Both the position numbers and the translations under genes were made by a program. From positions 10,466 through 74,465 of the IMG/VR virus record IMGVR_UViG_2599185236_000001: a DNA stretch of 64,000 nt; one strand, 5' to 3'. Positions 20,549-59,847 of this stretch are shown one piece after another. Numbering within the stretch: the first letter of the stretch is position 1; the number at the start of each line of letters is the position of its first letter. Below the pieces are notes generated by a model, which did not search any database, had not been told where the DNA came from, and was given only the letters and a program-made list of their open reading frames with translations. This stretch comes from a virus (Duplodnaviria > Caudoviricetes).

Positions 20549-23500
20549 TCAGCCTTTCATCGAAGTGAACTTTTGCTGGTTTGAGCCGAAGCCCGATCGC
20601 TGCTGCGACTGGTTGTATTGGCCGAGACCGTCGCTCACGCCCTGTTGAACAAGCATCCGGACATGATCATCGCCATTGGCGCCGTCTATGCGGACCACTA
20701 AGACGCCGGGCTGTCCGTTGTCGTTGGCTGCCGCTCGCGGGGAGCGCAGTGCGGGTGCCGATGGAACCGACGCGGGCGTCACAAGACCGCCCTCAGCGAA
20801 GCGCCCAACCTGGCCGCTGTTGATGGCGCGCAGGAGTGCGAGGTGCTTCTTGGTAGCGCTGGCACGTACGACGAACTCGCCATTCGAAAGCATCGCAGGG
20901 ATGCTGTCGCTGGTGCCCGTCCCGGGACCGCGGACATCGCCGCCATCGGCAAATAGGCCGACCATTGGCGTGTACTTGGCGATCTGCGCGGCACTCAACC
21001 CGCCTCCAAAGAGGCCGGAGAAAATACCGCCAAGCCCGCCGACGCCGCCGCCGCCGCTTGGGGCGGATGGGGCTGCCGGAAAGAAGCTTGTCGAAAGCTG
21101 GCCCAGTTGGCCAAGGCCCTGCGTTGCTGCGCCTGAACTATCGGCAAGCTTGCCGAGCGCATCGGCCGCGCTAGTAGCGCGCTTCACCTGAAGTTCGGAT
21201 GCGTTGACCCAAGCATTGGTGACAGCGTTGCCCGAATTGCCCGATAGCATCTCAAGCTGCAGTTGCCCGCCGGCCATACGGGTCGATCCGGTTGCGAGGC
21301 CGACATGTCCGCCTGCCTGATCGGCACCAAGGCCGCGCGACTGCAAAAGCACGTCGCCGCGGAGAACCTGGCCGGGATCGACGGCCGAGCCCCAGTTCTG
21401 GAACGAGTTCGCGGTCAGCGAGCCAGAGCCCTTGACGCCGATTTGCTCGAGCGAAGAGTTGACGAAGGCCGCACACCAAGCGGTCTGTGCCGCATTGATG
21501 TCGACGCCGCCCTGTTTCAGGTAGGCGTTGATTGATCCCGCATTGCTACGCTCGTTGGCGCCGAGGAGCGCCGAGGCCTTGTCGACCGCGCCTCCGGCGC
21601 CTGCGCCCGCGGTCTTGCCGCCAAAAACGCTCGAAAGAAGTCCGCCACCCAAGGATGTGGCGCTGCTACCGATCGGCGAACCATTTCCGCCGCCAGTCAT
21701 GATAGCTTTGAACAACTGACCAAGTACGTTCGACAGCTGCTTCTGCGCGGTATCCTTAAGCTCATTGAGGAAGACCTCGCCGAACGCCTTGCCGATATCG
21801 CCGCCGCTGTTCACGATGCCATTTGCTAGGCTGTCAGCGAATTGATCGATCGCCTCGTTCTGTCGCTCAAGCTGTTGCGACTGCCTGATCTGGCCAGCCT
21901 CCTGGCTGTTCATATCGGTCGGTAGGCCGTACTGCTTGAGCGTCGTATAGATCTGTTGATCCTGCGACGTCATCGAGTTGTAACGACGCTGCTCCAGCAG
22001 ATCCTGCGACAGCTTGGCCTTGGCCAACTCGGCCGAATACTGCTTGTAGAGCGCGACTTTCTTCTCTAGCTCGGCGCGCTGCGCCTCACTGAGGGACCGG
22101 CCTTTGTCCTCGGCCTGCTGGAATAGATCCAGCGCGAACCGCGCGGTGTCTGCTTCGATACCGAACTTGCCGAGAAGGTCGATCTCCTGCTGCATCTGCG
22201 CGAGGCGATCGTCTGCCGACTTTTTCAGGTCGCGGTATGCATTGGCGGATCGCTGGGCGGCTGTCTCGGCTTTCTTGTCGGTAGGCAGTGCCTCAAGCTC
22301 GCGCAGGGGTCTACCCTGCGGTACAGGACCAACCTCCGGCGTCATGAAGCCGGGGTTTTGGATATTCTCGTCCCAAGGCTGAGCGTTGGTTTCCGGCTTG
22401 CCTGTCGCAGGATTATAACTGCGCCAGGTCGTTACCGGCAAATTGCGGCTAGCCGCATCGTTTACCTTGCCCACGTTCTCGGATGCCGACAGAGCGGATG
22501 TCGACAGCTCGTCAAACATCTTCTTCCAGTCGGCGAGAGCAGGAATACCCGAGCTGTTGATTGCTGCGGCAAGGGCATCCTGTACGCTCTTGACGTCTTG
22601 CGCCTCCAGCTTTCCATCTGCCGCAGACTTAGCGAACTGCTCAAAAGCGGACTGCAGCCGCTTGATGACCTCGTCTGCCTCCCCGGCAGATCGAAGGTCT
22701 TGAACGAGTGCGGAGACAGAAATGCGAGCATCTTCTAGCTGCTTCTTTGTGTCTTCGAGAGTCTTCTCGTTGATCAGGGCCACGCCAGCCTTAAGGTCGG
22801 CCGCATCCTGCGCCCGCGCCAATTGCTCGGCGTATTCCCTAAGCGCGGGGACCGCGTCGCCCCATTTGTCGGCGACCGACTGGATAAGCTGCGCTTGCTC
22901 CTTGAGCTTCTCCGACGCGCTATTGCTATCGGAAAGGACGCCGGAGAAGTAAGCTACGGCCGCCGCAGTCGCACCAATCGCCCCAATTGTGATAAGCGAT
23001 ATGGGATTGACCAACTGCATGAAGGCGCCAGCGACAGCTGGACCAATACGCTCGCCGCTCGCTCGAATGTCGTTGAAGACTTGCGCGACCTGCGGACCCT
23101 GCTGGAGGGCAACGGTATACCATGGCATGAATGCCGCAGTAGCGGCTACGTCGAAGCCCTGCGCAGCAAGGTTGGACGTGTTGAACGAATTTCCACGGCT
23201 CATTGTGACCGTGGCTTGCAGTGCCTGATTTCGACCCTTGATTGCCGCAGTCGATGCCAGGGCAGCCTGTCGTTCGCGCGAAATAGCCGTAGCCATCTCG
23301 TCAGCCGAGATCGCGCCTAGAGCATGCGCCCGCTTGATGTCTGCGACGGCCGACTTGTAGTTGTTGATCGTGTTGAACAGAGGCGAGTAGCGAGCACGAA
23401 GGCGCTCAAGCTCTTTGCCTTGGTCGGCGAGTGCGCCGGTCCATTCTTTAGCGGCGCTGGTTCCGATCCCAACCATGCCGTTGATGCGATTCTGTAGGCT

Positions 23501-23665
23501 GGTGGTCAGGGAGCTGTCGACCGAACGACCAACGTTGTCGAACTGCTTCTTGACCGATCCAGCAAGCGTGCCGAGATCTTGCTCGATGCGCTTGATGCTG
23601 CGGCGAAGTGTAGCTTGGTCGGTCGAAATGCTGATAATCAGGTCATCGGAGTTATCGACCGCCAT
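20549..23665 (-). CDS. Tail tape measure protein with internal CHAP/NlpC-like domain
   Basis: 1038 aa Ala-rich helical; QQGPQVAQVF/LVNPISL motif; AWCAAFVN...GGHVG...SGNSGN domain; FADGG/LSNGEFVV C-terminus. Confidence 0.93.
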   Translation of the reverse strand: MAVDNSDDLIISISTDQATLRRSIKRIEQDLGTLAGSVKKQFDNVGRSVDSSLTTSLQNRINGMVGIGTSAAKEWTGALADQGKELERLRARYSPLFNTINNYKSAVADIKRAHALGAISADEMATAISRERQAALASTAAIKGRNQALQATVTMSRGNSFNTSNLAAQGFDVAATAAFMPWYTVALQQGPQVAQVFNDIRASGERIGPAVAGAFMQLVNPISLITIGAIGATAAAVAYFSGVLSDSNSASEKLKEQAQLIQSVADKWGDAVPALREYAEQLARAQDAADLKAGVALINEKTLEDTKKQLEDARISVSALVQDLRSAGEADEVIKRLQSAFEQFAKSAADGKLEAQDVKSVQDALAAAINSSGIPALADWKKMFDELSTSALSASENVGKVNDAASRNLPVTTWRSYNPATGKPETNAQPWDENIQNPGFMTPEVGPVPQGRPLRELEALPTDKKAETAAQRSANAYRDLKKSADDRLAQMQQEIDLLGKFGIEADTARFALDLFQQAEDKGRSLSEAQRAELEKKVALYKQYSAELAKAKLSQDLLEQRRYNSMTSQDQQIYTTLKQYGLPTDMNSQEAGQIRQSQQLERQNEAIDQFADSLANGIVNSGGDIGKAFGEVFLNELKDTAQKQLSNVLGQLFKAIMTGGGNGSPIGSSATSLGGGLLSSVFGGKTAGAGAGGAVDKASALLGANERSNAGSINAYLKQGGVDINAAQTAWCAAFVNSSLEQIGVKGSGSLTANSFQNWGSAVDPGQVLRGDVLLQSRGLGADQAGGHVGLATGSTRMAGGQLQLEMLSGNSGNAVTNAWVNASELQVKRATSAADALGKLADSSGAATQGLGQLGQLSTSFFPAAPSAPSGGGGVGGLGGIFSGLFGGGLSAAQIAKYTPMVGLFADGGDVRGPGTGTSDSIPAMLSNGEFVVRASATKKHLALLRAINSGQVGRFAEGGLVTPASVPSAPALRSPRAAANDNGQPGVLVVRIDGANGDDHVRMLVQQGVSDGLGQYNQSQQRSGFGSNQQKFTSMKG

Positions 23666-23676
23666 GCGAGCATCCT

Positions 23677-23706
23677 AAAAAGAAGGCCCGCGTGGTGGCG
23701 GGCCTT
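23677..23706 (-). terminator. Terminator-like hairpin just upstream of the tape measure gene
   Basis: Minus strand AAGGCCCGC-CACCAC-GCGGGCCTT followed by CTTTTT. Confidence 0.6.
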
Positions 23707-27743: not shown

Positions 27744-29141
27744 TTAGGCCGAGGTGACCATGAGCTTGACGGCTTCGAAGTTCACGACGTCGCCACCGAC
27801 GCGGCGGCGGTTGTAGAACTTGACGTACGGCTTGGCGGTCAGGTTGTCGCGCAGCAGCGTCAGGCCGAGACGGTCGACGATGGTGTATGCTGCCTTGAAG
27901 TCACCGAAAGCCACCGGAAGCGAACCAGCTGCGATTGCCGGCATGTCTTCACAGCGATTGACTGCGAAACCCAGGATCGTCGCCGGCTGGCCGCCCTTGA
28001 TGTCACCCATCTGCCAGAGGTAGTTGCCCTGGCCATCCTTGAGCTTCATGGCGTCGCGGACGGTGGTCCGCTTCATCAGGAAGTTGGCGTTCTGGGTGTA
28101 GTAGTCCTTCAGCGCGAAGACGAGGTTGTAGAAGGCGTCAGCGGTGATGGCAGTCGCACCACCGGAGACAATCTGCTCGATCTTGCCGTTTTCGAGGTGA
28201 CCGTCGGCGCCGGACGTTGCCCAGTTGCCGTAGCTCAAGAGACCGCGCGGTTTGTTGACACCGTCACCGGTGAAGAATGCGCTGGCCTCGATGCGGCCCA
28301 TGCGTTCGCCTACCTTGTTGCCGACCCACGCCTCAATATCGAGGCCAGCGTCTTCCAACATGTTCTGCGTCACGCGCGGCTCAGCGAACATCTCATGAGC
28401 GAAGATCTTGGATACGCCGAGCTGCGACGTCGACGTTTCCGACGGTGCCTGGGTCTCGCCTACCCAGCCGCCGAAGCCAAATTCGCCTTCGTCGCGCGGG
28501 ATTTCAAGTTCCTTGCCGCCGATCGTCTCGACCGTTGCGAGAGCGCGTAGATTCGAAGTCTCGAAGATGCGCTGGATGATGCGGCTGGAGACCGTCTTCG
28601 GGACAAGGTAGCCGCCGTCCGGATCGGAGCCGGTCTGCATTGCTGCCTGTACCGGGCCAGGCATAGCCGCGTCGGAGCGAGCGCGCATGTACGGCGCAAA
28701 TGCCGCCGAGTAAGCCGCATAGGCCTCTTCGTCGGCGACGATCTCGGTGTTGATGCCGAGCTTGCCGGCGTTGGCCAGCTGCGCCTTTGCGAATTCGAAT
28801 GCGGCCTTTGCGTCAGCCGCGCCTTCATCGCCTGCCCAGCCGCCGTTACCCGGGCGCTTTAGGACCGCGTCGATCTTGTCGACGTCGGCGGAAACAGCAA
28901 CGATGCTGTCCGTGGCAGCCTTCAGCGATGCCTCCAGAGCGGCATGCTTGGTCTCAACGGCAGCAACGAGGGTGTCGATCTTGTTAACGGCGATCGGGTC
29001 GCCATCCTTGCCGTACTTGTCGAGCGTCGCGCGGAGCTCGTTAAGTTCGCGGCGGGTGTTGTCGTTGGCAGCACGGAAGTCATTGCCGAAGCGGGTAACT
29101 TCCGCCGAAATGGCGTCGATATTTTCCTGAGAAACGGGCAC
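27744..29141 (-). CDS. Major capsid protein, HK97 fold
   Basis: N-terminal coiled delta domain, DGGYLVP, GDGVNKPRG, FGDFKAAY, RVGGDV. Confidence 0.97.
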   Translation of the reverse strand: MPVSQENIDAISAEVTRFGNDFRAANDNTRRELNELRATLDKYGKDGDPIAVNKIDTLVAAVETKHAALEASLKAATDSIVAVSADVDKIDAVLKRPGNGGWAGDEGAADAKAAFEFAKAQLANAGKLGINTEIVADEEAYAAYSAAFAPYMRARSDAAMPGPVQAAMQTGSDPDGGYLVPKTVSSRIIQRIFETSNLRALATVETIGGKELEIPRDEGEFGFGGWVGETQAPSETSTSQLGVSKIFAHEMFAEPRVTQNMLEDAGLDIEAWVGNKVGERMGRIEASAFFTGDGVNKPRGLLSYGNWATSGADGHLENGKIEQIVSGGATAITADAFYNLVFALKDYYTQNANFLMKRTTVRDAMKLKDGQGNYLWQMGDIKGGQPATILGFAVNRCEDMPAIAAGSLPVAFGDFKAAYTIVDRLGLTLLRDNLTAKPYVKFYNRRRVGGDVVNFEAVKLMVTSA

Positions 29142-29150: not shown

Positions 29151-30014
29151 CTATGATTGGGTGTGGAATGCGGCGCGGGCCTTTGCGAGGGCCTCTGCCA
29201 AACCTGAAAGCTTCACGTCGCCAGCATCCCGCGTGGCCTGAATGTCGCTTGTGTCGACTTCGCGCATTGCTGCGCGAGCCTTTGAGCGAGACCACCCAGC
29301 GTCCTGCGTGAGTGCTCGTTCCATGTCTCGTTTTGTGGGCTGGGTGTCGGACGTGTCGTCGTCTTCCCATAGCAGGGCTTTCGGCACATGGCCGAAAACG
29401 GAAAGGTCAAACTTCGCCTGCGGCTCCGCCGTCAATCCGATGGACGTGGCAAAACCGGCGTCTTTGGCTTCTCGTGCAGTCAGCCAAGTCTCGTCATCCA
29501 TCATCTGCTTGATGGCGCGGATCCCTGTCGTGGTGCGAGCCGCGTAGGTTCGGGCCAATGCGTCATCGATCTTACCGAGAACAGTGGCAACATCAGACAG
29601 GTCGTGCCTGTTGCCGACGCCAATGGTCCAAGCGTTGTGGATCATGAACATTGCGTTGTCTGCGATGACGATCTCGTCACCGGCCATGGCGATGATGGAA
29701 GCGATGGATGCCGCCAAGCCGACCACCTCGACCTTTACCTTGCCGTCGTAAGCAAGGAGGTCGTTGTAGATCGAGATGCCGTCAAACACGTCGCCGCCTG
29801 GCGAGTTGATCCGCAGCGTAATGTCGCCGCTGACTTGGGAAAGCTGAGACCGGAATGACCGGGCGTTGACGCCCCAATAGCCGATTTCATCGTAGAGGTG
29901 GATAACCGTTCCGGAGCTCTCCGCCTTGGCTTCAAATTTGGTGCCTACAGCGCGCGCAAAGAATCGGTCACGGCGCTCTCCCGCTCGGGGCGCGCCGACG
30001 TCAATTTTATCCAT
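29151..30014 (-). CDS. Prohead protease, ClpP/S14-like
   Basis: RINSPGGDVFDG, GLAASIASII, FMIHNAW, DDETWLTAREA. Confidence 0.95.
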   Translation of the reverse strand: MDKIDVGAPRAGERRDRFFARAVGTKFEAKAESSGTVIHLYDEIGYWGVNARSFRSQLSQVSGDITLRINSPGGDVFDGISIYNDLLAYDGKVKVEVVGLAASIASIIAMAGDEIVIADNAMFMIHNAWTIGVGNRHDLSDVATVLGKIDDALARTYAARTTTGIRAIKQMMDDETWLTAREAKDAGFATSIGLTAEPQAKFDLSVFGHVPKALLWEDDDTSDTQPTKRDMERALTQDAGWSRSKARAAMREVDTSDIQATRDAGDVKLSGLAEALAKARAAFHTQS

Positions 30015-30022: not shown

Positions 30023-31252
30023 CTATTTCGCCGCATTGTCGTTGGCGGGCGACGGAGCTGGCTTGTCGACCTGAATAGCGGGGTTCTCGAACACATCACC
30101 GCCCTCACGGGGGTTCATGTTCTCCTTGATGCGGGCCTCGTTCGCACTCATCCATTTGTTCTGGATGGCGGATGAGTAGGCCTCGTACCGCGCTTTTGTG
30201 TCGCCTCGCAGCATCGCGTCAATGAGGAACTCGCAGAAGTAACCCTCTGCTCTGTCCCTCTCGGTCAGCAGGTCTCGGTTGATTGCCTGCTCCCATCGCA
30301 CCAGCCAAGGCCGAAGGCTATGAATGATGAAGTCCAGGGTCTGGAATTCGATGTTTGAGAAGGTCGCCTTCTCGAGATCGTTGACCAGGTGAGCAGGGAC
30401 GCGGAAAATGCCGGCGATCTCAGATCGTTGGAACTTGCGACCATCGATGAACTCGGCATCCTTGGGTGCGATGTTCATCGAAATCCATTCCATCCCCTCC
30501 TCGAGGATGATCGGCTTGCCGCTGTTCTCCAAACCAGCGTAACGCTCGGAGAACTGCTGGCGCAGATTTTCCGTGGCTATCGGCCCGATGACCTTTGGGT
30601 GCTTCAACACGCCGGTTGGCTTGACGCCGTTCCGGTACATGTTGGAACCAAATGATTCGGCGGCCATACCAAGGCCGATTGCCTCCCGCGCGAGCGAGAT
30701 CATTGATCGCCCAACATAGCCCTTCGGCAATGGACCACGTATGTGGTGCATGTCTTTCGAAGTGAGCTTGGCCTTCGTGTTGTCAGGCATGGTCGCCTCG
30801 TACTTCGGTGACCAGTCCATAGCCTGCGTGATCGTCACGCCGTCTGGGTTAAGTGGAATAAGCCCGATCGCTTGCCCGAGCCGATTACGCTCGACGTAGC
30901 TGTAGCCGTTGCCACGCAGCGATAGGTTGACCATCGTGCCTTCGGCATATTCGAACGCGGAATTCCACCCGTTAGCCTGATCGTGCAGCACCTTGTAGAG
31001 TGGATGCTCGGTGGCTCGGTCTTTTCCGCCATCCTTGCGCCTCTTGTAGAGGATGCAAGGAAGGCTGGCGACACTCTCGGCAAGTACGCGCACGCAGATC
31101 AACACCGTCGTGTAGCGTAGGGCAGTCTCGGGCGAGACGTAAACTCCTGTCGCAGCGAGGTTCCCACCGCTCTGCAGCTTTGCCCATTCATCCATGGGCA
31201 AGCTGGTGATCTCAGCTCGGGGGCGCATAAGCGCGCCGAAAATTCCAGCCAT
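30023..31252 (-). CDS. Portal protein, HK97 family
   Basis: CVRVLAESVASLP, LRGNGY, EIAGIFRVP, NEARIKENM. Confidence 0.96.
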   Translation of the reverse strand: MAGIFGALMRPRAEITSLPMDEWAKLQSGGNLAATGVYVSPETALRYTTVLICVRVLAESVASLPCILYKRRKDGGKDRATEHPLYKVLHDQANGWNSAFEYAEGTMVNLSLRGNGYSYVERNRLGQAIGLIPLNPDGVTITQAMDWSPKYEATMPDNTKAKLTSKDMHHIRGPLPKGYVGRSMISLAREAIGLGMAAESFGSNMYRNGVKPTGVLKHPKVIGPIATENLRQQFSERYAGLENSGKPIILEEGMEWISMNIAPKDAEFIDGRKFQRSEIAGIFRVPAHLVNDLEKATFSNIEFQTLDFIIHSLRPWLVRWEQAINRDLLTERDRAEGYFCEFLIDAMLRGDTKARYEAYSSAIQNKWMSANEARIKENMNPREGGDVFENPAIQVDKPAPSPANDNAAK

Positions 31253-31431
31253 CAATCACCGCCATTGTTGCGGGCGTCGAGCAGAACTCCCGCCAGGATT
31301 AAAAGCCCACCGACGATGAAGCCGGCAGGCGGATAGATCATCCATGAGCCAATAGCGATGGATGCTACTGCGGAAACGCCGACGGCATCTCGCGCAAGGA
31401 CGGCAAGAGTTGCCGCGCTTGGGAATGTCAT
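31252..31431 (-). CDS. Small two-TM protein between terminase and portal (59 aa)
   Basis: MTFPSAATLAVLARDAVGVSAVASIAIGSWMIYPPAGFIVGGLLILAG; coupled at both ends. Confidence 0.65.
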   Translation of the reverse strand: MTFPSAATLAVLARDAVGVSAVASIAIGSWMIYPPAGFIVGGLLILAGVLLDARNNGGD

Positions 31432-35403: not shown

Positions 35404-36321
35404 TCAGGCCGATTTGGCGTACCGCGCCAATTCGAGTGCTTCTGCGAAATTATCGTTGGCAGCTATGAGAAGACGCCTTCCCGCCTCGATCGCATACTGA
35501 CCTTTGAAGCCTCGGGCTTGCCCGATCTCTTTCAGGTTCCGCGCCTTGCTCGCCTGCGTCAGAACGTCGAAGTGATCGTCGGCCATGTATCCGACGGCCT
35601 CGTGCCATGACCTGCGCTGCTCAGTCTCCGACACCACATCCTGCCAGGCCATCGATCCACCGCCGGCGCATGTCGTCTTTCGCATGCCGAGGAAGCTATC
35701 GGCCACCTTCTGCGATCCGCAGGGCAGCCCATCCGGATAGCGCGTGATCAGCTTGCTGACATTACCGGCCTTGGCGTAGGCGTCTGCCAGGATCCGCTTC
35801 GCTTCCTCGCGGCTGATCTGCTGGCGTGGCTGGCGCTTCCGGGACGCCGTAACGTACCGACCCTTCCGGGTCTTGAGCATCTCGGCGAAATAGTCATTGC
35901 TGTCCGTCAGCTCCTGCGAGTTCTCGTCGCCGCCGCGTTGCGCCCGTTCCTTGTCGACCGTGCCGAGCATGGCGCCGGTCGGCATCCGATCCTGGAACGT
36001 GACGACCTTGCCGTCGATCGTGACCTTCATGGCCTGCTCGGTCTGTGTGCCGTCGGAGAAGCGCAAGCGACCGATGCAAACGGTCTGACCTGCATCGTTG
36101 CGATTTACCGGGCCAGCTTTGACCTGCTTCATCATCTCCTCGACCGAGGGCGAAATATCCCAGAGCCGTTCGGTCTTGAGGTCGGCAACGTCTTCCGGGT
36201 TGTTGTCGTTGGCCGGTGTGATGGTCCAGTTGGTCTGGATCGGCTCCGGCTCATGGTCCGGCGCGGTAGCGAAGGTCAGGAGCGCGTCGAGCTGCTCGGC
36301 AAGTGATCCGTGTCTGGCCAT
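35404..36321 (-). CDS. Conserved phage protein at the early/late boundary (candidate late-gene regulator)
   Basis: GAGGAG SD; last early-strand gene before the tRNA/packaging region; C-terminal HTH-like segment (LKEIGQARGFKGQYAIEAGRRLL). Confidence 0.65.
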   Translation of the reverse strand: MARHGSLAEQLDALLTFATAPDHEPEPIQTNWTITPANDNNPEDVADLKTERLWDISPSVEEMMKQVKAGPVNRNDAGQTVCIGRLRFSDGTQTEQAMKVTIDGKVVTFQDRMPTGAMLGTVDKERAQRGGDENSQELTDSNDYFAEMLKTRKGRYVTASRKRQPRQQISREEAKRILADAYAKAGNVSKLITRYPDGLPCGSQKVADSFLGMRKTTCAGGGSMAWQDVVSETEQRRSWHEAVGYMADDHFDVLTQASKARNLKEIGQARGFKGQYAIEAGRRLLIAANDNFAEALELARYAKSA

Positions 36322-36359
36322 GTGGTCTCCTCTGTGTGGTGGTGATGCCTCTTGCGACG

Positions 36360-36845
36360 CTAGGCGGCTTTGGTCCAGTTCGCGGCGATCCAAGCGAGGA
36401 CCAGATCAACAGCCTGCCTCGCTGCATCGTTGGGGGTAATGGCTGAAACAACCTCGACGTGGTGCCCGATCTTGGCGAGCGCAGCGTGACGTTCCTTTTG
36501 CTGCGGGCTGAGCCGGCCTTTGCCAACCTTGTTCTCGATCATCCGGATCTGACCGTTGGCAAGATAGATGCGGACGTCCGGTTCGCCTGGCGTCATTCCA
36601 GCGGAAATTGCCTCTTGCTGGGCACGCGGACCACGCTTGGCCGCGTTCTGATCTCCAGCTAGCAGGAACTGCTTGCCGTACTCAGGCATGGATCGAAGCG
36701 ACCGAACCTGAGCCGCCTGCAACTCCCATTCCTTCGGTAAGGCTGCTTTGGTCGTGACCTTGCCGCTGGCCGACGTGCGGATGATGGTACGGACGCCTTT
36801 GATGCGGACAGTCTGCTGGGTGGGTTTGGGCAACGGTTCCTCCAT
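36360..36845 (-). CDS. VRR-NUC domain nuclease
   Basis: EWELQ...GMTPGEPDV...IENKVGKGRLSPQQ PD-(D/E)xK pattern. Confidence 0.88.
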   Translation of the reverse strand: MEEPLPKPTQQTVRIKGVRTIIRTSASGKVTTKAALPKEWELQAAQVRSLRSMPEYGKQFLLAGDQNAAKRGPRAQQEAISAGMTPGEPDVRIYLANGQIRMIENKVGKGRLSPQQKERHAALAKIGHHVEVVSAITPNDAARQAVDLVLAWIAANWTKAA

Positions 36846-40742: not shown

Positions 40743-40829
40743 GACAGTCTCCTCCGCTGCATTTCTATCTGGTCCTGGCGTTCGAAATCGAGAAACTTGC
40801 CTCGGATGAGAATCATGAGAGGAATCTGG

Positions 40830-44943: not shown

Positions 44944-45518
44944 CAGGCGGCCCTCAGTAGGTCACCGGCCGGTGAATTATCGTTGGCGGCCTCGAACTTC
45001 CCAACCTGATTGCCCCACGCCGACCAGCCGGCCCAAGCCTGCCGAGCGAATAGCTCGAGGTAAGGGCCGCCGACGAGCTTCTCGATCCGGCCATACTGCT
45101 CGTCGGGCTTTCGGCTATGCTCGCGGCGCGGCGCGCGGATCACAGAGCGGACGCCACGGGACAGACGGCGCGGCTTGCCTCGCTTGAACAGGTGGCAGAC
45201 TTCCACCTCCTGGCGCGTCCAGTAGCCCATGCCCATCCTTCCTTTGTCCCAGACGAAGGCGATCGACACCGGCTTGAAGCCCCAAGCCGCGGCCACTTCG
45301 ATGGCGGCTCCCTGCAGGTGGCTGACGGTCCACATGAACAGGAGGCAGTCCTTCGCCGCTACGTCAGCAACGGGCAACGCTGTGATGTCGGCGAGCGACA
45401 TGACGTCGTAGGGTTGCCCCCCCCGGGCCGGAGCCACGCTCTTCTTGCCGTAGGTTCTGAACGCCCACGGCGGATCAGCAAGGATGGCGCCGAAGCGCCC
45501 CTCTGGTAAGGGATTCAT
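44943..45518 (-). CDS. MT-A70 family adenine methyltransferase
   Basis: ILADPPW, LFMW, EHSRKP, LELFAR..W.AWGNQ. Confidence 0.92.
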   Translation of the reverse strand: MNPLPEGRFGAILADPPWAFRTYGKKSVAPARGGQPYDVMSLADITALPVADVAAKDCLLFMWTVSHLQGAAIEVAAAWGFKPVSIAFVWDKGRMGMGYWTRQEVEVCHLFKRGKPRRLSRGVRSVIRAPRREHSRKPDEQYGRIEKLVGGPYLELFARQAWAGWSAWGNQVGKFEAANDNSPAGDLLRAA

Positions 45519-47432: not shown

Positions 47433-49226
47433 TCAGAACGGGATGTCATCCCAATCTTCTTGCATCCACGCAGGCTTGTTGTCGTTCGCCGGCGGCTCGT
47501 CGTCGTCGTTGGCTGCGCCATAGTCGCCGACCACATGAGAAACCACGTCCCAATACCGATCCCTCGGTTTGACCATGATCTCCGCTGTCTCTTTCAACTC
47601 GGTCTGGCGCTCCAACCACTCCAAAACGCTTCGAGGGAACGGCCGCTGGCCTGCATGGGCAAGCCAAAACCTATCCGCCTTAGTTTTGGCGAAGCCGGAA
47701 TGCTCGGGGCACAGCCACTCGTTGATGGCCGTCATGCCAGACATGTAAGTGACTTTGACTGACGGCGGCTTGTCGCCCTTCCCTTCATGGAAGCGGAATG
47801 TGCGGCTCGTAACGTCGCGCGAATCCGGCTCGGCCATCGTCATGATTGGCACGTCGGCGGCGTTCGCAGCGATCTTCGGGCTGTCATCGATGTCAAACTC
47901 GAACCCGCAGCAGGTGCAGATGCGAGCCGAGGCGTGCAGCTTCTCGCCGCAGCCTGGTTCGCCATGCTTGTCGAAGCCATCCTGCGGGCAGATCTTCATC
48001 GGCGCTTCGCCGTCGCCGCTACCCGGCTCCTTCGGCTCAACCATATCGACCGGCCCATGCTTGTCGACGAGGCCGGCGAAGTCCAGCACGAGGCAGGACG
48101 GCTTAGGCCCGGCAGCAATAGCGGCGCGGCGCTCCTCCGGCGTCTCCAACGACATGCCTGGCGCGTAAAGCACGCGAGTGCCCCTTCCCATCATCTGCAG
48201 GTAAAGGCTCGCGCTAAGCGTCGGCCGGAGCGCCGCAATGAGATCCACGCCCTTGTGATTGAATCCCGTCGTCAAGACTGAGTTGTTGGTCAGAGCGCGG
48301 ATGCGATAGGCCTTGAAATCCTCGATGATCCGGCGGCGCTCCTCTTTCGGAGTGTCACCGGTGATGGTCTCGCAGCTGATGCCGCGCGACCGTATCTCGT
48401 CGCGGACGTGCTCGGCATGCTCGACACCGGAGCAGAAGCAAAGCCAAGACCGTTTGTCGGCGCCCTTGGCCACTATCTCATCGACTGCGGCGCGCGTGAC
48501 GTCCATCTTGTCAACGGCAGCCTGTAGCGCCGACTGCTTGAAGTCGCCTCCGAGCTTGCCGACTCCCTTGGTGCTGAGCTCGAGAGCGGTATGCTTCGAT
48601 GACAGCGGGGCGAGGTAGCCATCCCGCACGCCATCGGCGATGCCGTAGGTATAGACGACGCGGTCGAACATGCGATCGTCTCCCTGGTCGAGGCGACCGC
48701 TGTCCAGTCGAAATGGCGTTGCGGTCAGGCCGACAATCTTAAAATCCGGATTAACTTCACGCATGACGCGAAAGAACTGGCCGTACTGAGTGTCGCTGTT
48801 CTTCGGGATCAAGTGGCATTCGTCGACCAGCACTACGTCGATGGGTCGGTCGAAGATCTTCTCGCCGTCGACGACGCGGGCGCCGCAGATCAGGTCCGCC
48901 TTGTTCCAGACAGTCTGAATGCCAGCAAAAATGATCTGACTGCGCGCGTCTCGGCGGTTAAGGCCGGCTGAGAAGATGCCCGCCGGCGCAAAGGGCCAGA
49001 CGCCGAGTAGCTCGAGGTAATTCTGCTCAATGAGCTCGGCCACGTGGGTGACTACCATAATACGCATGTCGGGCCAGCCCTCGACGAGCTGTTGGATGAC
49101 GGTGGCCATTACCATCGACTTGCCCGTACCGGTAGCGAGGTCGATCAGCGGATTGCCAGCCTCCTCTCCCCAATAGTCGAACAGCGCCGCAACGGCGTCT
49201 TCCTGATAGTACCGCAGCCCCATCAA
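47433..49226 (-). CDS. SF2 DEAD/DEAH-box helicase with C-terminal Zn ribbon
   Basis: ATGTGKS, VDECH, GLTATP, QMMGRGTR, CxxC; acidic DDIPF C-terminus. Confidence 0.93.
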   Translation of the reverse strand: MMGLRYYQEDAVAALFDYWGEEAGNPLIDLATGTGKSMVMATVIQQLVEGWPDMRIMVVTHVAELIEQNYLELLGVWPFAPAGIFSAGLNRRDARSQIIFAGIQTVWNKADLICGARVVDGEKIFDRPIDVVLVDECHLIPKNSDTQYGQFFRVMREVNPDFKIVGLTATPFRLDSGRLDQGDDRMFDRVVYTYGIADGVRDGYLAPLSSKHTALELSTKGVGKLGGDFKQSALQAAVDKMDVTRAAVDEIVAKGADKRSWLCFCSGVEHAEHVRDEIRSRGISCETITGDTPKEERRRIIEDFKAYRIRALTNNSVLTTGFNHKGVDLIAALRPTLSASLYLQMMGRGTRVLYAPGMSLETPEERRAAIAAGPKPSCLVLDFAGLVDKHGPVDMVEPKEPGSGDGEAPMKICPQDGFDKHGEPGCGEKLHASARICTCCGFEFDIDDSPKIAANAADVPIMTMAEPDSRDVTSRTFRFHEGKGDKPPSVKVTYMSGMTAINEWLCPEHSGFAKTKADRFWLAHAGQRPFPRSVLEWLERQTELKETAEIMVKPRDRYWDVVSHVVGDYGAANDDDEPPANDNKPAWMQEDWDDIPF

Positions 49227-49765
49227 GCAGCCCGCCTTTGCAGACGAGCGACGAGAACGGCCCGGGCACGCTCTTCCTTCTGGCGAACGTTCTCTTTGCT
49301 CGTGCCGTTCTCGTCTCCGATGTCGGAAAGCAGTTCGCCGGCCGCGCGACGCAGCACGATGTTTCCGTTCGGGATGCGCTGCAGACGATCAACGACCTCC
49401 GCGAGATCGGCGCGAACGAACTGCTCCGGCTGCACACGCAGTTGCGCGCATCTGTTCTCAAGAGGCGCAACGTCATCGCCGACCATGGCATCAATCGAGA
49501 CTTCAGGCGCGTTGCGCATCTGGCGCCGCTCGCGCTTGCGCATCCCACTCGCCACGCTCTCCATGACGAGTTGCGCCCATGTCCGGAACGTCTCCATTCT
49601 GCATGTGCCGGCACGCCGCAGCATGGCAATCATCGATTCCTGCAAAAGATCGTCAGCCTTCTGACGGTCGCGTGTGATTATGCGCGCCTTGCGACGGAGC
49701 ATAGGAAGGTAGGCGACAAGCGCGGCGTCAAAGCCGGTCGGCCTGTTGTCATTCGCCGGGATCAT
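49223..49765 (-). CDS. ECF-like sigma-70 region 2/4 protein
   Basis: YLPMLRRKARIITRDRQKADDLLQE (region 2) and LSDIGDENGTSKENVRQ (region 4 HTH). Confidence 0.8.
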   Translation of the reverse strand: MIPANDNRPTGFDAALVAYLPMLRRKARIITRDRQKADDLLQESMIAMLRRAGTCRMETFRTWAQLVMESVASGMRKRERRQMRNAPEVSIDAMVGDDVAPLENRCAQLRVQPEQFVRADLAEVVDRLQRIPNGNIVLRRAAGELLSDIGDENGTSKENVRQKEERARAVLVARLQRRAA

Positions 49766-51004: not shown

Positions 51005-52063
51005 CTACACCCGAACCGGCATCAAGACGCCGTCCCAGCCAGCCAAGCCACCGGTGATGACCGCAGCACCGCCACCATCCGAAAGCGCCATCGTGACCTC
51101 TCCTGCAGGCAGGACATTGAACAGGTCGCGCACGTACTGGCTGTTGAAGCCGACATAGAAAGGCTCGCCGCTGTATTCCGCGGCAACCTCGTCCTCCGCC
51201 TCGCCGGCATCAGATCGAGCCGCCAGGGCGATTGAACCTGGCGCGATGCTCAGCTTAACCGACCGGCCTTTCTCCGACGAGACAGTCACAACGCGTTCGG
51301 CCGCCTTCATCATCTCGTCGCGGTTGACGGTGATGATCTTGTCGTTGTCACGCGGGATGACGCGCTGATAGTCTGGGAATGTGCCATCGATCAGATTGGC
51401 GGTCAGGCTGATGTCGGCATGCTGGATGCGGATCTTCTCCTGCGAGACCGAAACCGTCACCTCGCCTTTCGGCAGCAGGCCGACGGTCTTGCGCCCCACG
51501 ATGACGCCGGCGAACTCCGGAACGACCGGGCCACGGTTGCGCGCGAGCCGGTGGCCGTCAGTAGCCACAGCTACCGCCTTGCCGTCGACGACGTGGAAGT
51601 AGACGCCCCCGAGATAATAGCGGGTCTCCTCTGTCGAGATGGCGAACGCAACTGGCGCGAACAGGCCGGCAAGGTCGATGTCAAACTCGGCGTCGAATGT
51701 GCCCTTGCCGAGGATGTCAGGAAAGTCCGACGCCGGCAGGGTTTCCAGCTTGAACTTGCTTCGGCCCGACTTCACCTCAAGGCGGTTGTCTACCAGTGAG
51801 ATGGAAATGTCGGCTGCGCTTGCCTTGCGGACGATTTCGCCGAGCAGCTTGGCGCTGACGGTCGTTGTGCCGGCTTTCTGGACATCGGCTTCGGCGCTGG
51901 CCGTTGCCTGGATGTCGAGGTCTGTCGCTGTCACCTTGAGAGTGCCACCCTCGGCCTCCAGCAGGATATTGGACAGGATTGGAATGGTGTTTCTGGCTTC
52001 GACGACCTTGCCCACGGCGCCGACGACGCGCGCGAGTTCGGTGCGGCTGATATTCAGCTGCAT
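51005..52063 (-). CDS. dnaN: DNA polymerase III beta sliding clamp (phage-encoded)
   Basis: RNTIPILSNILL, ATDLD, TEETRYYLGGV, ATDGHRLA, GTFPDYQRVIP, LMPVRV. Confidence 0.95.
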   Translation of the reverse strand: MQLNISRTELARVVGAVGKVVEARNTIPILSNILLEAEGGTLKVTATDLDIQATASAEADVQKAGTTTVSAKLLGEIVRKASAADISISLVDNRLEVKSGRSKFKLETLPASDFPDILGKGTFDAEFDIDLAGLFAPVAFAISTEETRYYLGGVYFHVVDGKAVAVATDGHRLARNRGPVVPEFAGVIVGRKTVGLLPKGEVTVSVSQEKIRIQHADISLTANLIDGTFPDYQRVIPRDNDKIITVNRDEMMKAAERVVTVSSEKGRSVKLSIAPGSIALAARSDAGEAEDEVAAEYSGEPFYVGFNSQYVRDLFNVLPAGEVTMALSDGGGAAVITGGLAGWDGVLMPVRV

Positions 52064-52120: not shown

Positions 52121-52198
52121 TTAGCGGAGCGCGACCCAGACGAACGCCACGAAGGCGAACGCACCGGCCGCGCTGGCGAAGGCGTCAGGCCAACCCAT
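52121..52198 (-). CDS. Tiny membrane peptide (25 aa)
   Basis: TGATG-coupled to the SSB stop; MGWPDAFASAAGAFAFVAFVWVALR. Confidence 0.45.
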   Translation of the reverse strand: MGWPDAFASAAGAFAFVAFVWVALR

Positions 52199-52767
52199 CA
52201 CTTGTTGCCCCAGGGCCGGCGCGTGGTGCCCGCAGCTGCGCCACCGGCGGGCTTGCTGGCCGCATTGTCGTTTGCAGCCGTACGCTGCTGTCGGTTGTCG
52301 TTTGCCGGAGCCGACCGCTGCGCAGGCTGGTTCGGGTCGATCTCGGCGGCCGGTACATTGCCTTCGTCCGGATAAAAGAAGCGCTTGATCTCGTTGCGCG
52401 GCTCGTAGCCCTCGCGCGGTTTCTCGACGCCGACCTTTGCCGTGAACGAGATGAAATGAAGCTCGTCGGAGTCGTTGACCTCGTTGAGGCCGATGGCGCG
52501 GCACAGTTTCGCGAGATCGCGCTGGCCGATCTCCTGCGCCGTGGAGTTGGCGTTTTCGAGGTTGATGTTCGCGAAGATCTTCCGACCCTTGAACTCCGAC
52601 GGCTCGACGACGTCGTAGGTGAGCTTGAGGATGGTTCCGTTGCCCTTAGCCGTCGGCTTCACCTCGGAGGCCGAAACCTCCAGCACATAAGTGCCGTTCG
52701 GCAGGTTGCTGCCGCGCTGTTCGGTGTCGTGATCCTGAGCATTAAATCTTTGACCAAGTCCGGCCAT
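52198..52767 (-). CDS. DUF669-like single-stranded DNA-binding protein
   Basis: LPNGTY.LEV..SEVK.T..G.G..LKLTYDV; Sak4-adjacent context; flexible C-terminal tail. Confidence 0.85.
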   Translation of the reverse strand: MAGLGQRFNAQDHDTEQRGSNLPNGTYVLEVSASEVKPTAKGNGTILKLTYDVVEPSEFKGRKIFANINLENANSTAQEIGQRDLAKLCRAIGLNEVNDSDELHFISFTAKVGVEKPREGYEPRNEIKRFFYPDEGNVPAAEIDPNQPAQRSAPANDNRQQRTAANDNAASKPAGGAAAGTTRRPWGNK

Positions 52768-55859: not shown

Positions 55860-56150
55860 TCACGCCCTCCCCTGCGGCTTGGCGCCGCGCAAATAGTTTT
55901 CGAAATTGATGATGACGGCCGTAGGCGGCTCTTCCGCTTTTGCCGGCGGATCGGCGCGCTCGGCATGGCGGAGCGTGACAGCGAAGAAAGGCCGGACCTC
56001 GAGGCTGCCGGCGAGCTGGACGTTCACGTAGCGCCCGAAGTCGCTGTTGCTGACGACGATGCCGATGATATCGGTATTCAGCTTGGATTCGACCCAGTCG
56101 CCCTCGTCGAAGTAGGTGCAGTCGCACTGGTTGTCGTCGATGGTGCTCAT
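55860..56150 (-). CDS. Hypothetical protein (KOW-like)
   Basis: ATGA-coupled, 96 aa. Confidence 0.65.
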   Translation of the reverse strand: MSTIDDNQCDCTYFDEGDWVESKLNTDIIGIVVSNSDFGRYVNVQLAGSLEVRPFFAVTLRHAERADPPAKAEEPPTAVIINFENYLRGAKPQGRA

Positions 56151-56461
56151 GCCGCCACCGCCATTTCCGGCAGGCGATTGTCGTTCGCCGCAACGCGGGT
56201 CTCCAGGCAACGAAGGCGCGGGAGAGTGACTGGCATCATGCCCGAGGTCGTCGAGCAGCCGCCATTGTGGGCGGTCATGACCGTGATGCGGTCGGGATGC
56301 TCGGCCCGGGCCGGGCGGGCCGGTTTGCGGCCGTTGAATGCGTCGATGACGGTTTTCTTACCGCATCCGTAGAAGTCTGCGAGTGTCTGATAGCTTGCGC
56401 CGCTGCGCTTCATTTCACGAAGCACGTCAAGTGCCTCGGCCGTGATGGCTCTGGGTCTCAT
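56147..56461 (-). CDS. HTH DNA-binding protein ending in an ssrA-like tag
   Basis: GASYQTLADFYGCGKKTVIDA HTH; C-terminus AANDNRLPEMAVAA; GAGGAG SD. Confidence 0.75.
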   Translation of the reverse strand: MRPRAITAEALDVLREMKRSGASYQTLADFYGCGKKTVIDAFNGRKPARPARAEHPDRITVMTAHNGGCSTTSGMMPVTLPRLRCLETRVAANDNRLPEMAVAA

Positions 56462-57854: not shown

Positions 57855-57859
57855 AAAGT

Positions 57860-58451: not shown

Positions 58452-58468
58452 CGAAAAAGGAGGCTGTT

Positions 58469-59128: not shown

Positions 59129-59203
59129 CCAACACGGCCTATGCCCGCCACCAACGGGCAGACCACCACCAACCACCACCACACCACAGAAGGAGACCAC
59201 ACC

Positions 59204-59467
59204 ATGCGCCAACAGGACGCCAGAAGACTTGCTGCCGATTTCCATGCGGACTTCGTGCCGACGCGCAGCCAAGACAACCTTGAGGTCATTGCGAACCTCA
59301 CCGCCGAGACGAATACACCGAAGGTGATGGCCGCAGTCGCAGGCTGGCACGAGCGCCGGCGCAATCGTCGCAGCATGGCCATCGCGACCGCGCTGCGCCA
59401 GGTCAGCGGAACCAAACCTCGGCCGGCAAATGACAACCGCCGGCCTCAGCGCCAGAGGGCGGCATGA
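59204..59467 (+). CDS. Hypothetical protein ending in an ssrA-like tag
   Basis: CACCACAGAAGGAGAC element before ATG; ends PANDNRRPQRQRAA. Confidence 0.7.
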   Translation: MRQQDARRLAADFHADFVPTRSQDNLEVIANLTAETNTPKVMAAVAGWHERRRNRRSMAIATALRQVSGTKPRPANDNRRPQRQRAA

Positions 59468-59847
59468 ACGATACCACGAACAAAGGGGCGGCTTCTGCCG
59501 CCCTCATCCCAGCGCAGCGAGGCACGCGCAGCATGAGCAAGATCCCTGCGAACGACAACACGCCCCTGGCGGATCCGTTGGGGCACCTGCCGATGTTCGC
59601 CACCGACCAACAGCTGGCCGTTGCGATCGTCGGCAGAACCAGGTCAGCGATGTGGGTGAAGACAGTCATTCCGCAGCTCGAGCGAAAAGGCTTCCCGCGG
59701 ATCGACCCTCTGCACGACGGCAGACCGGTCCCGCTGGTGAAGAAGTTCTATGATGGGTATTTTGGGATCACGGCAGGCTTCTCGGCCGCCGCTCCAGATG
59801 GAGAGGAAAGGTTAGGCGAATGGAAGAAATCACGGCGCCGGGCCTGA
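59464..59847 (+). CDS. Winged-helix protein, candidate recombination directionality factor
   Basis: Overlaps the integrase start; ATDQQLAVAIVG...LERKGFPRIDP motif. Confidence 0.6.
   Translation: MNDTTNKGAASAALIPAQRGTRSMSKIPANDNTPLADPLGHLPMFATDQQLAVAIVGRTRSAMWVKTVIPQLERKGFPRIDPLHDGRPVPLVKKFYDGYFGITAGFSAAAPDGEERLGEWKKSRRRA

What the first reader, a model, noticed from the sequence alone, without database searches (positions are those of the whole stretch)
20712..59560. Prophage proteins carry genetically encoded ssrA-tag mimics (AANDN...AA-COOH): possible hard-wired SspB/ClpXP degrons
Seen: the tetrapeptide ANDN occurs in at least 12 unrelated proteins (tape measure, portal, 35404, primase, both MTases, helicase, sigma-like, SSB, 56147, 59204, 59464). 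Synonymous codons vary, so the signal looks like protein-level selection and not a DNA repeat. Four proteins end in ANDN-x(6-11)-AA-stop: AANDNRLPEMAVAA (56147), AANDNSPAGDLLRAA (MT-A70), VANDNAPIQADLFGEAA (MTase 44113), PANDNRRPQRQRAA (59204). 35404 ends AANDNFAEALELARYAKSA. About 18 proteins end in Ala-Ala. Established: the Caulobacter tmRNA tag is AANDNFAEEFAVAA; its N-terminal part binds SspB and its C-terminal AA is read by ClpX. Inference: the phage tunes half-lives of early proteins, or decoys host SspB/ClpXP, through tag mimicry. Caveat: some AA ends may simply come from GAGGCNGC-ATGA SD/coupling sequences, but that does not explain ANDN.
Basis: partly seen in the sequence, partly recalled or inferred. 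Interest (0 to 1): 0.8.

Follow-up and report, generated by a model that had tools for sequence, protein, structure and literature searches.

The report
Phage proteins mimic host ssrA tag
A temperate Rhizobium phage related to phage 16-3 has written the two conserved ends of its host's tmRNA "destroy-me" tag (Ala-Asn-Asp-Asn at the head, Ala-Ala at the very end) into the loose ends of about a quarter of its proteins, which probably ties their lifetime to the host SspB-ClpXP protease, although no binding or degradation has been measured.

Summary
The window has 16 in-frame ANDN motifs in 14 proteins. The prophage is about 72 kb and runs past the window's left edge; in all it has 21 motifs in 18 proteins, against 0.15 expected. 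The other host ORFs have 8 in 1.96 million residues, which is what composition predicts. ANDN is by far the most enriched 4-mer. It is never out of frame, its wobble bases follow normal codon usage, and it sits outside Pfam domains near protein ends.

The host tmRNA tag starts with ANDN and ends in AA. The host has SspB next to ssrA, and ClpX.

The pattern "ANDN, 5-12 residues, AA, stop" hits six places in the 6.9-Mb genome: the tmRNA gene and five prophage genes.

Phage 16-3 and 23 IMG/VR relatives show the same motif. In this family, 78% of proteins with ANDN 9-17 residues from the C-terminus end in AA, against 14% of proteins without ANDN. SD/ATGA gene coupling does not explain the AA ends.

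Tag mimicry at sequence level is therefore solid. This scan has reported the same phenomenon on other DNA in at least 10 genomes. I found no paper describing it.

The parts
20549..23665 (-). Tape measure protein (1038 aa). ANDN at 20717-20728, 59 residues from the C-terminus.
   Evidence: Weak homology to the 16-3 tape measure protein.
27744..29141 (-). HK97-type major capsid protein (465 aa). ANDN at 29058-29069, residue 25, in the N-terminal region ahead of the capsid domain.
   Evidence: Pfam Phage_capsid covers residues 176-462. Motif position. Unrelated contigs L099 and L083 carry 2-3 ANDN at the same place in their capsid genes.
30023..31255 (-). Portal protein (410 aa). ANDN at 30035-30046, 7 residues from the C-terminus.
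   Evidence: Pfam Phage_portal covers residues 50-379. The 16-3 portal is only 28% identical yet also has a C-terminal ANDN tail, and that tail ends in AA.
35404..36393 (-). Protein of unknown function (329 aa) with two ANDN: residue 61 (36202-36213) and residue 312 (35449-35460, 18 residues from the C-terminus).
   Evidence: No Pfam family.
38516..40816 (-). Primase-polymerase/AAA_25 replication protein (766 aa, ends in AA). ANDN at 39668-39679, in the linker between its two domains.
   Evidence: Pfam Prim-Pol covers 33-204 and AAA_25 covers 389-581; the motif is at residue 380. In 15 orthologues the linker diverges while ANDN persists, and in L005 it has moved to another spot in the same linker.
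42043..43209 (-). Protein of unknown family (388 aa, ends in AA). ANDN at 42169-42180, 45 residues from the C-terminus.
   Evidence: No Pfam family.
44113..44943 (-). DNA methyltransferase (276 aa) with a complete tag-like tail: ANDN at 44152-44163, then 10 residues, then AA and stop. The tail also holds a Q-x-D-L-F clamp-binding-like motif.
   Evidence: Pfam MTS covers 68-149. The tail matches the whole-genome pattern search. The tail type recurs in relatives.
44943..45518 (-). MT-A70 methyltransferase (191 aa) with a complete tag-like tail: ANDN at 44976-44987, then 8 residues, then AA and stop.
   Evidence: Pfam MT-A70 covers 9-171; the motif is at residue 178. Pattern match. In orthologues 86-89% identical in the domain the tail is labile: some lack ANDN, and most of the tails shown still end in AA.
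47433..49226 (-). Superfamily-2 helicase (597 aa). ANDN at 47478-47489, 18 residues from a C-terminus that ends in an acidic ...D-D-I-P-F tip like that of SSB proteins.
   Evidence: Pfam domains end by residue 445. In a 24-sequence tail alignment, NDN and the tip are conserved in divergent tails, often with two ANDN copies.
49223..49765 (-). ECF-like sigma factor (180 aa). ANDN at 49745-49756, residues 4-7.
   Evidence: Pfam Sigma70_r2 starts at residue 18. Motif position.
52198..52767 (-). Two ANDN in the C-terminal tail, at 52294-52305 and 52264-52275.
   Evidence: Pfam DUF669 covers 18-120; the motifs are at residues 155 and 165. Conserved in 20 orthologue tails.
56147..56461 (-). Small early protein (104 aa) ending in a complete tag mimic of native length: ANDN at 56177-56188, then 7 residues, then AA and stop.
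   Evidence: The tail is 13 residues, the same length as the host tag.
59141..59467 (+). Small protein (108 aa) upstream of the xis/int genes, ending in a complete tag mimic of native length: ANDN at 59426-59437, then 7 residues, then AA and stop.
59464..59847 (+). Excisionase-position protein (127 aa) directly before the integrase. ANDN at 59548-59559, residue 29.
   Evidence: In phage 16-3 the gene annotated xis and the ORF before it both carry ANDN.
59820..61016 (+). Tyrosine integrase at the right end of the prophage. It has no ANDN.
   Evidence: Pfam Phage_integrase. A diverged direct repeat of about 860 bp at C30:60861-61723 and 133311-134173 flanks the roughly 72-kb prophage.
51005..52063 (-). 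Phage-encoded DNA polymerase III beta sliding clamp. It has no ANDN and is a candidate alternative hub.
   Evidence: Three DNA_pol3_beta Pfam domains.
29151..30014 (-). ClpP-family prohead protease. It has no ANDN.
   Evidence: Pfam CLP_protease covers 61-192.

Best explanation
ANDN is a short linear peptide motif under selection in this 16-3-like temperate phage. It copies the conserved head of the host's tmRNA (ssrA) tag. The frequent C-terminal Ala-Ala copies the tag's end.

The most likely mechanism has two parts:
- The head docks the phage protein on the substrate-binding domain of the host adaptor SspB, which tethers it to ClpX.
- The terminal Ala-Ala is the ClpX entry signal.

Five tails in the window's prophage are complete, genome-encoded tags of native length. 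The other motifs are head-only docking sites at N-termini, linkers and tails, often paired with an AA end elsewhere on the same protein.

The inferred effect is adaptor-dependent turnover of mainly early DNA-handling proteins: methylases, nucleases, helicase, primase, sigma factor and a protein at the excisionase position. It would also affect the parts of capsid, portal and tape measure that I infer are removed or hidden on assembly.

Shown here: the motif, its enrichment, its protein-level nature, its position, its conservation, its coupling to AA, and the presence of the host tag, SspB and ClpX. Inferred, not shown: binding to SspB and degradation by ClpXP.
For: 1. Enrichment. 21 ANDN in 18 prophage proteins; my crude gene set holds 19 of them, against 0.15 expected. 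The host rate equals its composition expectation. ANDN is the top 4-mer at p about 1e-36.
2. Protein level. All DNA-level matches are in coding frame 0 and none in other frames. Wobble bases follow phage codon usage. Single-substitution variants are not enriched.
3. Host system. The tmRNA tag is ANDN, 7 residues, AA. SspB (167 aa) lies about 115 bp from ssrA and is homologous to the solved Agrobacterium and Caulobacter SspB structures 2NYS, 2QAS and 2QAZ. ClpX with its zinc N-domain is present. SspB was found in 38 of 41 sampled alphaproteobacterial genomes.
4. Complete mimics. The DNA pattern for 'ANDN, 5-12 residues, AA, stop' hits only the tmRNA gene and five prophage genes in 6.9 Mb, with 0 control hits. 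In 200 alphaproteobacterial genomes it hits almost only the tmRNA gene.
5. Spacing. Over 307 non-redundant motifs, the distance from ANDN to the C-terminus peaks at 11-14 residues; the native tag is 13.
6. Coupling. 78% of proteins with ANDN 9-17 residues from the end finish in AA. The figure is 31% with ANDN elsewhere and 14% without ANDN.
7. Accessibility. Motifs lie outside Pfam domain envelopes, and 17 of 21 are within 40 residues of a terminus, permutation p < 5e-5.
8. Selection. ANDN islands persist in fast-diverging tails of orthologues, with turnover. Non-orthologous or 25-28% identical proteins of 16-3 and of other contigs carry the motif at analogous places.
9. Specificity. Beta- and gammaproteobacterial phages with 52-55% identical terminases (HK022, Burkholderia vB_SBP9) have no ANDN, no ANDE/ANDD enrichment, and 8% AA ends.
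10. Established knowledge. In E. coli, SspB binds the first seven tag residues, its tail binds the ClpX N-domain, and ClpX takes the last residues (PMC9963277). The Caulobacter tag starts AANDN, and deleting sspB slows degradation of a tagged protein in vivo (PMC9393093).
Against:
- I could not read the papers that map which residues of the alphaproteobacterial tag SspB contacts. 'ANDN is the SspB site' rests on homology with E. coli, on my own recollection, and on the head being the conserved part of alphaproteobacterial tags.
- The residue before ANDN is Pro in 8 of 21 motifs, whereas in a real tag it is always Ala.
- The residue before the final AA is often charged (E, R, K), whereas native tags have L/V/I/M. 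This suggests weak ClpX signals.
- 11 of 18 ANDN proteins do not end in AA.
- Virion proteins also carry the motif.
- The host proteome shows no avoidance of ANDN: 8 observed against about 9 expected.
- Some orthologues have lost the motif, for example some MT-A70 tails.
Confidence: 0.55

Rival explanations
1. Same docking on SspB/ClpX, but the purpose is competition rather than self-destruction. Abundant ANDN-bearing phage proteins and cleaved capsid or tape-measure fragments would saturate SspB and ClpXP. That would stabilise other phage or host proteins, or disable a host quality-control or defence route.
For: - The motif sits in very abundant late proteins, in parts I infer to be cleaved or hidden: the capsid N-terminal region, the portal tail and the tape measure C-terminal part.
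- Many motifs lack a C-terminal AA on the same protein.
- Proteolytic queueing at ClpXP is a known effect of overloading with tagged proteins (PMC9382460).
Against: - One abundant decoy would be enough, yet 18 different proteins carry the motif.
- Most of them are low-copy early enzymes.
- The tight coupling of C-proximal ANDN with AA at native spacing looks like real substrates rather than pure binders.
Confidence: 0.15
2. ANDN is read by some other hub, and the likeness to the tag head is convergent or incidental. The hub could be a phage protein (for example the phage sliding clamp, the ClpP-like protease or an unknown protein) or another host protein (for example ClpA).
For: - The phage encodes its own beta clamp and a ClpP-family protease.
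- Most carriers are DNA-handling proteins, which are typical clamp clients.
- Pro instead of Ala before the motif, and a frequent Pro two residues after it, are not features of native tags.
- An earlier unchecked note of this scan (e1-1993188) reports ANDN in a Pseudomonas phage. By my recollection, that host's tag head differs after the fourth residue.
Against: - Known clamp-binding motifs are different. One methylase tail carries a separate Q-x-D-L-F motif after its ANDN.
- Portal, capsid and tape measure are not clamp clients.
- ANDN-rich contigs exist with no detectable homologue of any window gene within the fetched stretch, L078 and L079.
- The strong coupling to C-terminal AA at native tag length is unexplained by a reader unrelated to ClpXP.
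- Exactly the four residues that begin the host tag are the ones enriched, and one-residue variants are not.
Confidence: 0.2
3. The pattern is a by-product of nucleotide-level features: a DNA repeat or binding site, or Shine-Dalgarno/ATGA translational coupling that creates Ala-Ala ends.
For: 10 of the AA ends sit in G-A-G-G-C-N-G-C-A-T-G-A type stop-start junctions.
Against: - All 21 matches of the degenerate 12-mer are in coding frame 0 and none in the other five frames or between genes. Wobble bases vary as ordinary codon usage predicts.
- Host ATGA junctions encode AA only 40 times in 762, against 10 of 16-19 in the phage.
- In relatives most AA ends are not at ATGA junctions.
- The motif recurs in non-homologous genes of other phages.
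Confidence: 0.02
4. The motif is functionless: spread by recombination of short cassettes, or by mutational bias in disordered tails.
For: The tails are evolutionarily labile, and the motif is gained and lost between close relatives.
Against: - The flanks share no similarity, so no cassette is being copied.
- Enrichment is more than 100-fold with strict residue identity.
- The motif is conserved across 16-3, 23 relatives and further contigs.
- It shows position bias and coupling with AA.
Confidence: 0.03

Closest known systems
Native tmRNA (ssrA) tag read by the SspB adaptor and ClpXP. In E. coli the tag has 11 residues; the Caulobacter tag has 14 with SspB of the alpha type (PDB 2QAS/2QAZ).
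   Same: - Same head (A-N-D-N, usually preceded by Ala) and same Ala-Ala carboxy-terminus.
- Same overall length in the complete mimics: 11-16 residues, against 13 for the host tag.
- The host carries tmRNA, SspB and ClpX.
   Different: - The phage copies are encoded in the genes themselves, not added by trans-translation.
- The middle of the tag is not copied.
- Pro often replaces the Ala before the head.
- The residue before AA is often charged.
- Most copies are head-only and sit at N-termini or linkers.
Intrinsic ClpXP degrons of normal proteins. Examples are MuA and the other C-motif-1 substrates, Caulobacter CtrA with its terminal Ala-Ala, and the RseA N-terminal fragment, which combines an SspB site with a terminal V-A-A. 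These examples are from my own knowledge and were not checked here, except for the general statement in PMC8138137.
   Same: Genome-encoded C-terminal Ala-Ala signals. In RseA, an SspB-binding stretch lies upstream of a ClpX signal on the same chain.
   Different: Those are single proteins with individual signals, and the RseA site does not resemble the tag head. Here one strict four-residue copy of the tag head recurs in 18 unrelated proteins of one phage and across a phage family.
Engineered SspB-dependent tags (DAS, DAS+4) used for controlled proteolysis.
   Same: A strong SspB head combined with a weakened ClpX end makes degradation depend on the adaptor (PMC9382460, figure 2 legend). Phage tails ending in E/R/K-A-A have the same layout.
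   Different: Those tags are man-made, whereas the phage tails are natural. Whether the phage tails are adaptor-dependent is untested.
Short-linear-motif mimicry by viruses of eukaryotes (own knowledge).
   Same: Short host-like motifs arise convergently in disordered parts of viral proteins and turn over quickly.
   Different: The host is bacterial, and the pathway copied is the ribosome-rescue degradation tag. The motif is spread over a quarter of the proteome.

Membership tests
ssrA-type two-part degron (SspB site plus ClpX site) | N-terminal part identical to the head of the host's own tag | tested here: met
   The host tag begins with ANDN. The phage has 21 exact ANDN, and one-residue variants are not enriched.
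ssrA-type two-part degron (SspB site plus ClpX site) | Free C-terminal Ala-Ala | tested here: met
   Five complete tails in the prophage end in AA followed by a stop. In the family set, 29 of 37 tails with ANDN 9-17 residues from the end finish in AA. Head-only motifs do not meet this feature.
ssrA-type two-part degron (SspB site plus ClpX site) | Head-to-end spacing like the native tag | tested here: met
   The distance distribution peaks at 11-14 residues; the host tag is 13.
ssrA-type two-part degron (SspB site plus ClpX site) | Host encodes SspB with a substrate-binding domain, and ClpX with the N-domain that SspB docks on | tested here: met
   PF04386 match at 161 bits next to ssrA, homologous to 2NYS/2QAS/2QAZ. 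PF06689 ClpX zinc domain present.
ssrA-type two-part degron (SspB site plus ClpX site) | Physical binding of the head to SspB | not testable with these tools
ssrA-type two-part degron (SspB site plus ClpX site) | SspB- and ClpXP-dependent degradation | not testable with these tools
   This needs reporter stability assays in wild type, sspB and clpX backgrounds.
True ssrA tag | Added co-translationally by tmRNA to stalled chains | tested here: not met
   The tails are encoded in the ORFs and followed by ordinary stop codons. They are therefore mimics, not tags.
Short linear motif (SLiM) | Short, strict core outside folded domains, near termini or in linkers | tested here: met
   Pfam envelopes exclude the motifs. 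17 of 21 lie within 40 residues of an end, p < 5e-5.
Short linear motif (SLiM) | Convergent presence in unrelated proteins, conserved islands in divergent flanks, and gain/loss turnover | tested here: met
   18 unrelated proteins carry it. Orthologue tail alignments show the islands and turnover. Portals 28% identical both carry it.
DNA repeat or regulatory DNA site | Occurrence independent of reading frame and strand, with conserved nucleotides | tested here: not met
   All matches are in coding frame 0, and wobble positions vary.
Beta-clamp-binding motif | Q-L-[SD]-L-F-like consensus | tested here: not met
   ANDN does not resemble it. One methylase tail has a separate Q-x-D-L-F after its ANDN.

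The most novel reading that the evidence does not exclude
A whole group of temperate phages of Rhizobium-type bacteria, and at least one insertion-sequence family, has convergently hard-wired both halves of the host's ribosome-rescue tag into a quarter to a third of their proteins. The host SspB-ClpXP quality-control route would then act as a global, adaptor-gated clock and safety valve for mobile-element proteins. This would be the first proteome-scale degron mimicry described for a bacterial virus.
Probability: 0.4. Interest if true: 0.85.

Novelty: new variant of a known kind. Interest (0 to 1): 0.74.

Why it matters
If the tails work as they look, a temperate phage hands control of the lifetimes of its early enzymes and regulators, and of unassembled virion parts, to one host adaptor-protease pair.

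- This would be a new layer of lysis-lysogeny timing and self-toxicity control.
- It would be a natural counterpart of the engineered SspB-dependent tags used in synthetic biology.
- It would give a set of ready-made, graded degrons for alphaproteobacteria.
- It would predict that sspB or clpX status, or overload of trans-translation under stress, changes phage development.

The idea can be tested directly in the classic phage 16-3/Sinorhizobium system, because 16-3 itself carries 18 copies of the motif.

Tried and rejected
- **Docking.** I built a 28-sequence SspB alignment to dock host SspB with the tail of ORF 59141-59467.
- **Literature on the alpha-type SspB.** Two DOIs and four PMC ids were not held. 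Text searches for the adaptor's name and for the motif found nothing useful. No paper on ANDN motifs in phages was found. Given the library's limits, this is weak evidence of absence.
- **DNA-level motif.** Rejected.
- **SD/ATGA coupling as the cause of AA ends.** Rejected as a sufficient cause.
- **Capture of the host tag-coding sequence.** Rejected. The five tails share nothing with the tmRNA reading frame beyond the head and end codons, and they differ from each other.
- **A trait of the HK97-like terminase lineage.** Rejected. HK022 and a Burkholderia phage lack it.
- **Other prophages in this genome as internal controls.** None of the HK97 type exist; there is one capsid hit and one portal hit only.
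- **Host avoidance of ANDN.** Not seen: 8 observed against about 9 expected.
- **Matching of the tag middle to the host tag.** Not seen.
- **Structure prediction for tail disorder.** Not run. Pfam envelopes and conservation patterns were used instead.

Full report
**What is there**

The window lies in contig C30 (72232-136231) of a 6.88-Mb, 60.7% G+C genome. A six-frame scan finds 16 ANDN tetrapeptides between 20717 and 59559 and none elsewhere in the window. All 16 are in the frame of long ORFs.

A genome-wide scan adds five more just left of the window, at C30:61821-64935. These have the same flavour, and one is another tag-like C-terminus. A diverged direct repeat of about 860 bp (C30:60861-61723 and 133311-134173) brackets both clusters. 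The element is therefore one prophage of about 72 kb, with its integrase at window 59820-61016.

The large terminase is 88% identical to that of Rhizobium phage 16-3. Other modules are only distantly related: portal 28%, capsid 25%.

**Is it more than chance?**

- The other host ORFs hold 8 ANDN in 1.96 million residues, which is the composition expectation. My crude phage gene set holds 19 against 0.15 expected.
- In an unbiased comparison of all 3-, 4- and 5-mers, ANDN is first (p about 1e-36). It is followed only by its own sub-strings and extensions, such as AANDN and PANDN.
- One-residue variants are not enriched.

**Protein or DNA?**

- All 21 matches to the degenerate 12-mer are in coding frame 0. 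Four apparent exceptions were artefacts of my crude gene caller, which had picked overlapping ORFs.
- None lies in another frame or between genes.
- The third codon positions follow ordinary phage codon usage.

The signal is therefore at peptide level.

**Anatomy**

The 18 carriers are unrelated proteins:
- tape measure, capsid and portal;
- a primase-polymerase, a helicase, two methyltransferases and a DUF669 protein;
- an ECF-like sigma factor and a protein at the excisionase position;
- a relative of the 16-3 protein annotated 'DNA repair exonuclease', and a dNMP-kinase-like protein;
- a DUF1937 protein and several proteins of unknown family.

Where a Pfam domain is known, the motif lies outside it. 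17 of 21 motifs are within 40 residues of a terminus, permutation p < 5e-5. The exception is the primase linker. In the three virion proteins the motif sits in the capsid N-terminal region, the portal tail and the C-terminal part of the tape measure. I infer, without checking, that these parts are removed or hidden on assembly.

**The host side**

- ARAGORN finds one tmRNA, whose tag is ANDN, seven residues, then AA.
- SspB lies about 115 bp away and is homologous to solved Agrobacterium and Caulobacter SspB structures.
- ClpX with its zinc N-domain is present.
- SspB was found in 38 of 41 sampled alphaproteobacterial genomes, often beside ssrA.

**Complete mimics**

The DNA pattern for 'ANDN, 5-12 residues, AA, stop' hits six places in the genome: the tmRNA gene and five prophage genes. 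The reversed control pattern hits none.

- In 200 alphaproteobacterial genomes, about one per family, the pattern finds essentially one hit per genome, the tmRNA gene.
- In 100 genera of the host's own family, every genome has the tmRNA hit. About seven have clusters of extra hits on one contig, like this prophage. Control hits number 5 in 101 genomes.
- These tallies include one row each from the unpublished genomes G040 and G278.

**Head and end belong together**

I pooled the window, the upstream stretch, 16-3, 23 IMG/VR relatives and 80 further viral contigs seeded with one exact 15-mer. This gave 307 non-redundant motifs. The distance from ANDN to the C-terminus peaks sharply at 11-14 residues.

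In the 16-3-like set, counting unique tails:

| Class of protein | End in AA | Fraction |
|---|---|---|
| ANDN 9-17 residues from the C-terminus | 29 of 37 | 78% |
| ANDN elsewhere | 33 of 107 | 31% |
| No ANDN | 78 of 570 | 14% |

. The relatives are not independent, so the p-values overstate the effect.

Host genes with ATGA stop-start overlaps end in AA in 5% of cases, against 53-63% in the phage. In the relatives, most AA ends are not at such junctions.

**Selection**

- Phage 16-3 has 18 ANDN.
- All 23 relatives have 3-6 per 10 kb, with one exception all on the coding strand.
- About ten of the 80 seeded contigs are ANDN-rich, including some with no homologue of any window gene in the fetched stretch.
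- In alignments of helicase tails and primase linkers, the flanks diverge while the ANDN islands persist. In one relative the motif has moved within the linker.
- MT-A70 tails gain and lose the head; most of the orthologue tails shown still end in AA.

This is the behaviour expected of a short linear motif.

**Controls**

HK022 and a Burkholderia phage have terminases 52-55% identical to this one. Neither has ANDN or any enrichment of ANDE or ANDD, and 8% of their ORFs end in AA.

**Interpretation**

In E. coli, SspB binds the first seven tag residues, its tail binds the ClpX N-domain, and ClpX takes the tag's last residues (PMC9963277). The Caulobacter tag starts AANDN, and loss of sspB slows degradation of a tagged protein in vivo (PMC9393093).

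The simplest reading is that the phage motifs dock on SspB and the AA ends feed ClpX. That would make the complete tails adaptor-assisted degrons and the head-only sites tethers.

This part is inference. I could not read the papers that map the alpha-type SspB contacts.

Points against or unexplained:
- Pro often stands before the motif, where a real tag always has Ala.
- The residue before AA is often charged.
- Many carriers lack an AA end.
- The host proteome does not avoid ANDN.

The main rivals are a decoy role on the same machinery, and a different reader for the motif. Nucleotide-level explanations are rejected.

**Novelty**

I found no paper describing this; the searches are listed under Tried and rejected. 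Earlier notes of this same scan report the same motif on other DNA in at least 10 genomes, including 16-3-like phages, a satellite and a Pseudomonas phage. Those notes are unchecked apart from what I repeated here, and I did not count them as evidence.

Noticed in passing
Other genome G006, 21 places (for example L180:160-1551:+), and G191 (L183): A multi-copy ISLre2-family transposase (Pfam UPF0236) in another alphaproteobacterial family ends in a complete tag mimic: Pro-ANDN, then 10 residues, then AA and stop. So the mimicry is not confined to phages.
   Followed up: partly
window 47433-47490 (helicase C-terminus), and the same tail in 22 relatives: The helicase tail ends in an acidic D-D-[IV]-P-F tip like the C-terminal tip of bacterial SSB. 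This tip is conserved in relatives, just after one or two ANDN copies.
   Followed up: partly
window 44113-44165 and 51005-52063: The methyltransferase tail stacks ANDN, a Q-x-D-L-F beta-clamp-binding-like motif and a final AA. The phage encodes its own beta sliding clamp.
   Followed up: partly
window 52198-52260: The DUF669 protein tail ends in a conserved R-R-P-W-G-[SN]-K tip in all 20 orthologues seen. Its function is unknown.
   Followed up: no
window 61078-62337 and contig C30:60861-61723: The prophage sits at the 3' end of a host gene (419-aa ORF). It is flanked by a diverged duplicate of about 860 bp of that gene end, as if the phage carries a replacement 3' end for its target gene.
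   Followed up: partly
window 34410-34486: A tRNA-Met (CAT) gene lies between the early region and the terminase genes. A second tRNA-Met of the same anticodon lies at C30:181013-181089, outside the prophage.
   Followed up: no
Other genome G235, contig C3:5318-5766: Two tmRNA tag-coding stretches lie 400 bp apart and differ by one residue. This may be a duplication left by an island integrated in ssrA.
   Followed up: no
Contig C21:349224 of the same genome: A 72-residue ORF outside the prophage ends in Pro-ANDN followed by an acidic, aromatic tail resembling the phage helicase tail. It may belong to another mobile element.
   Followed up: no
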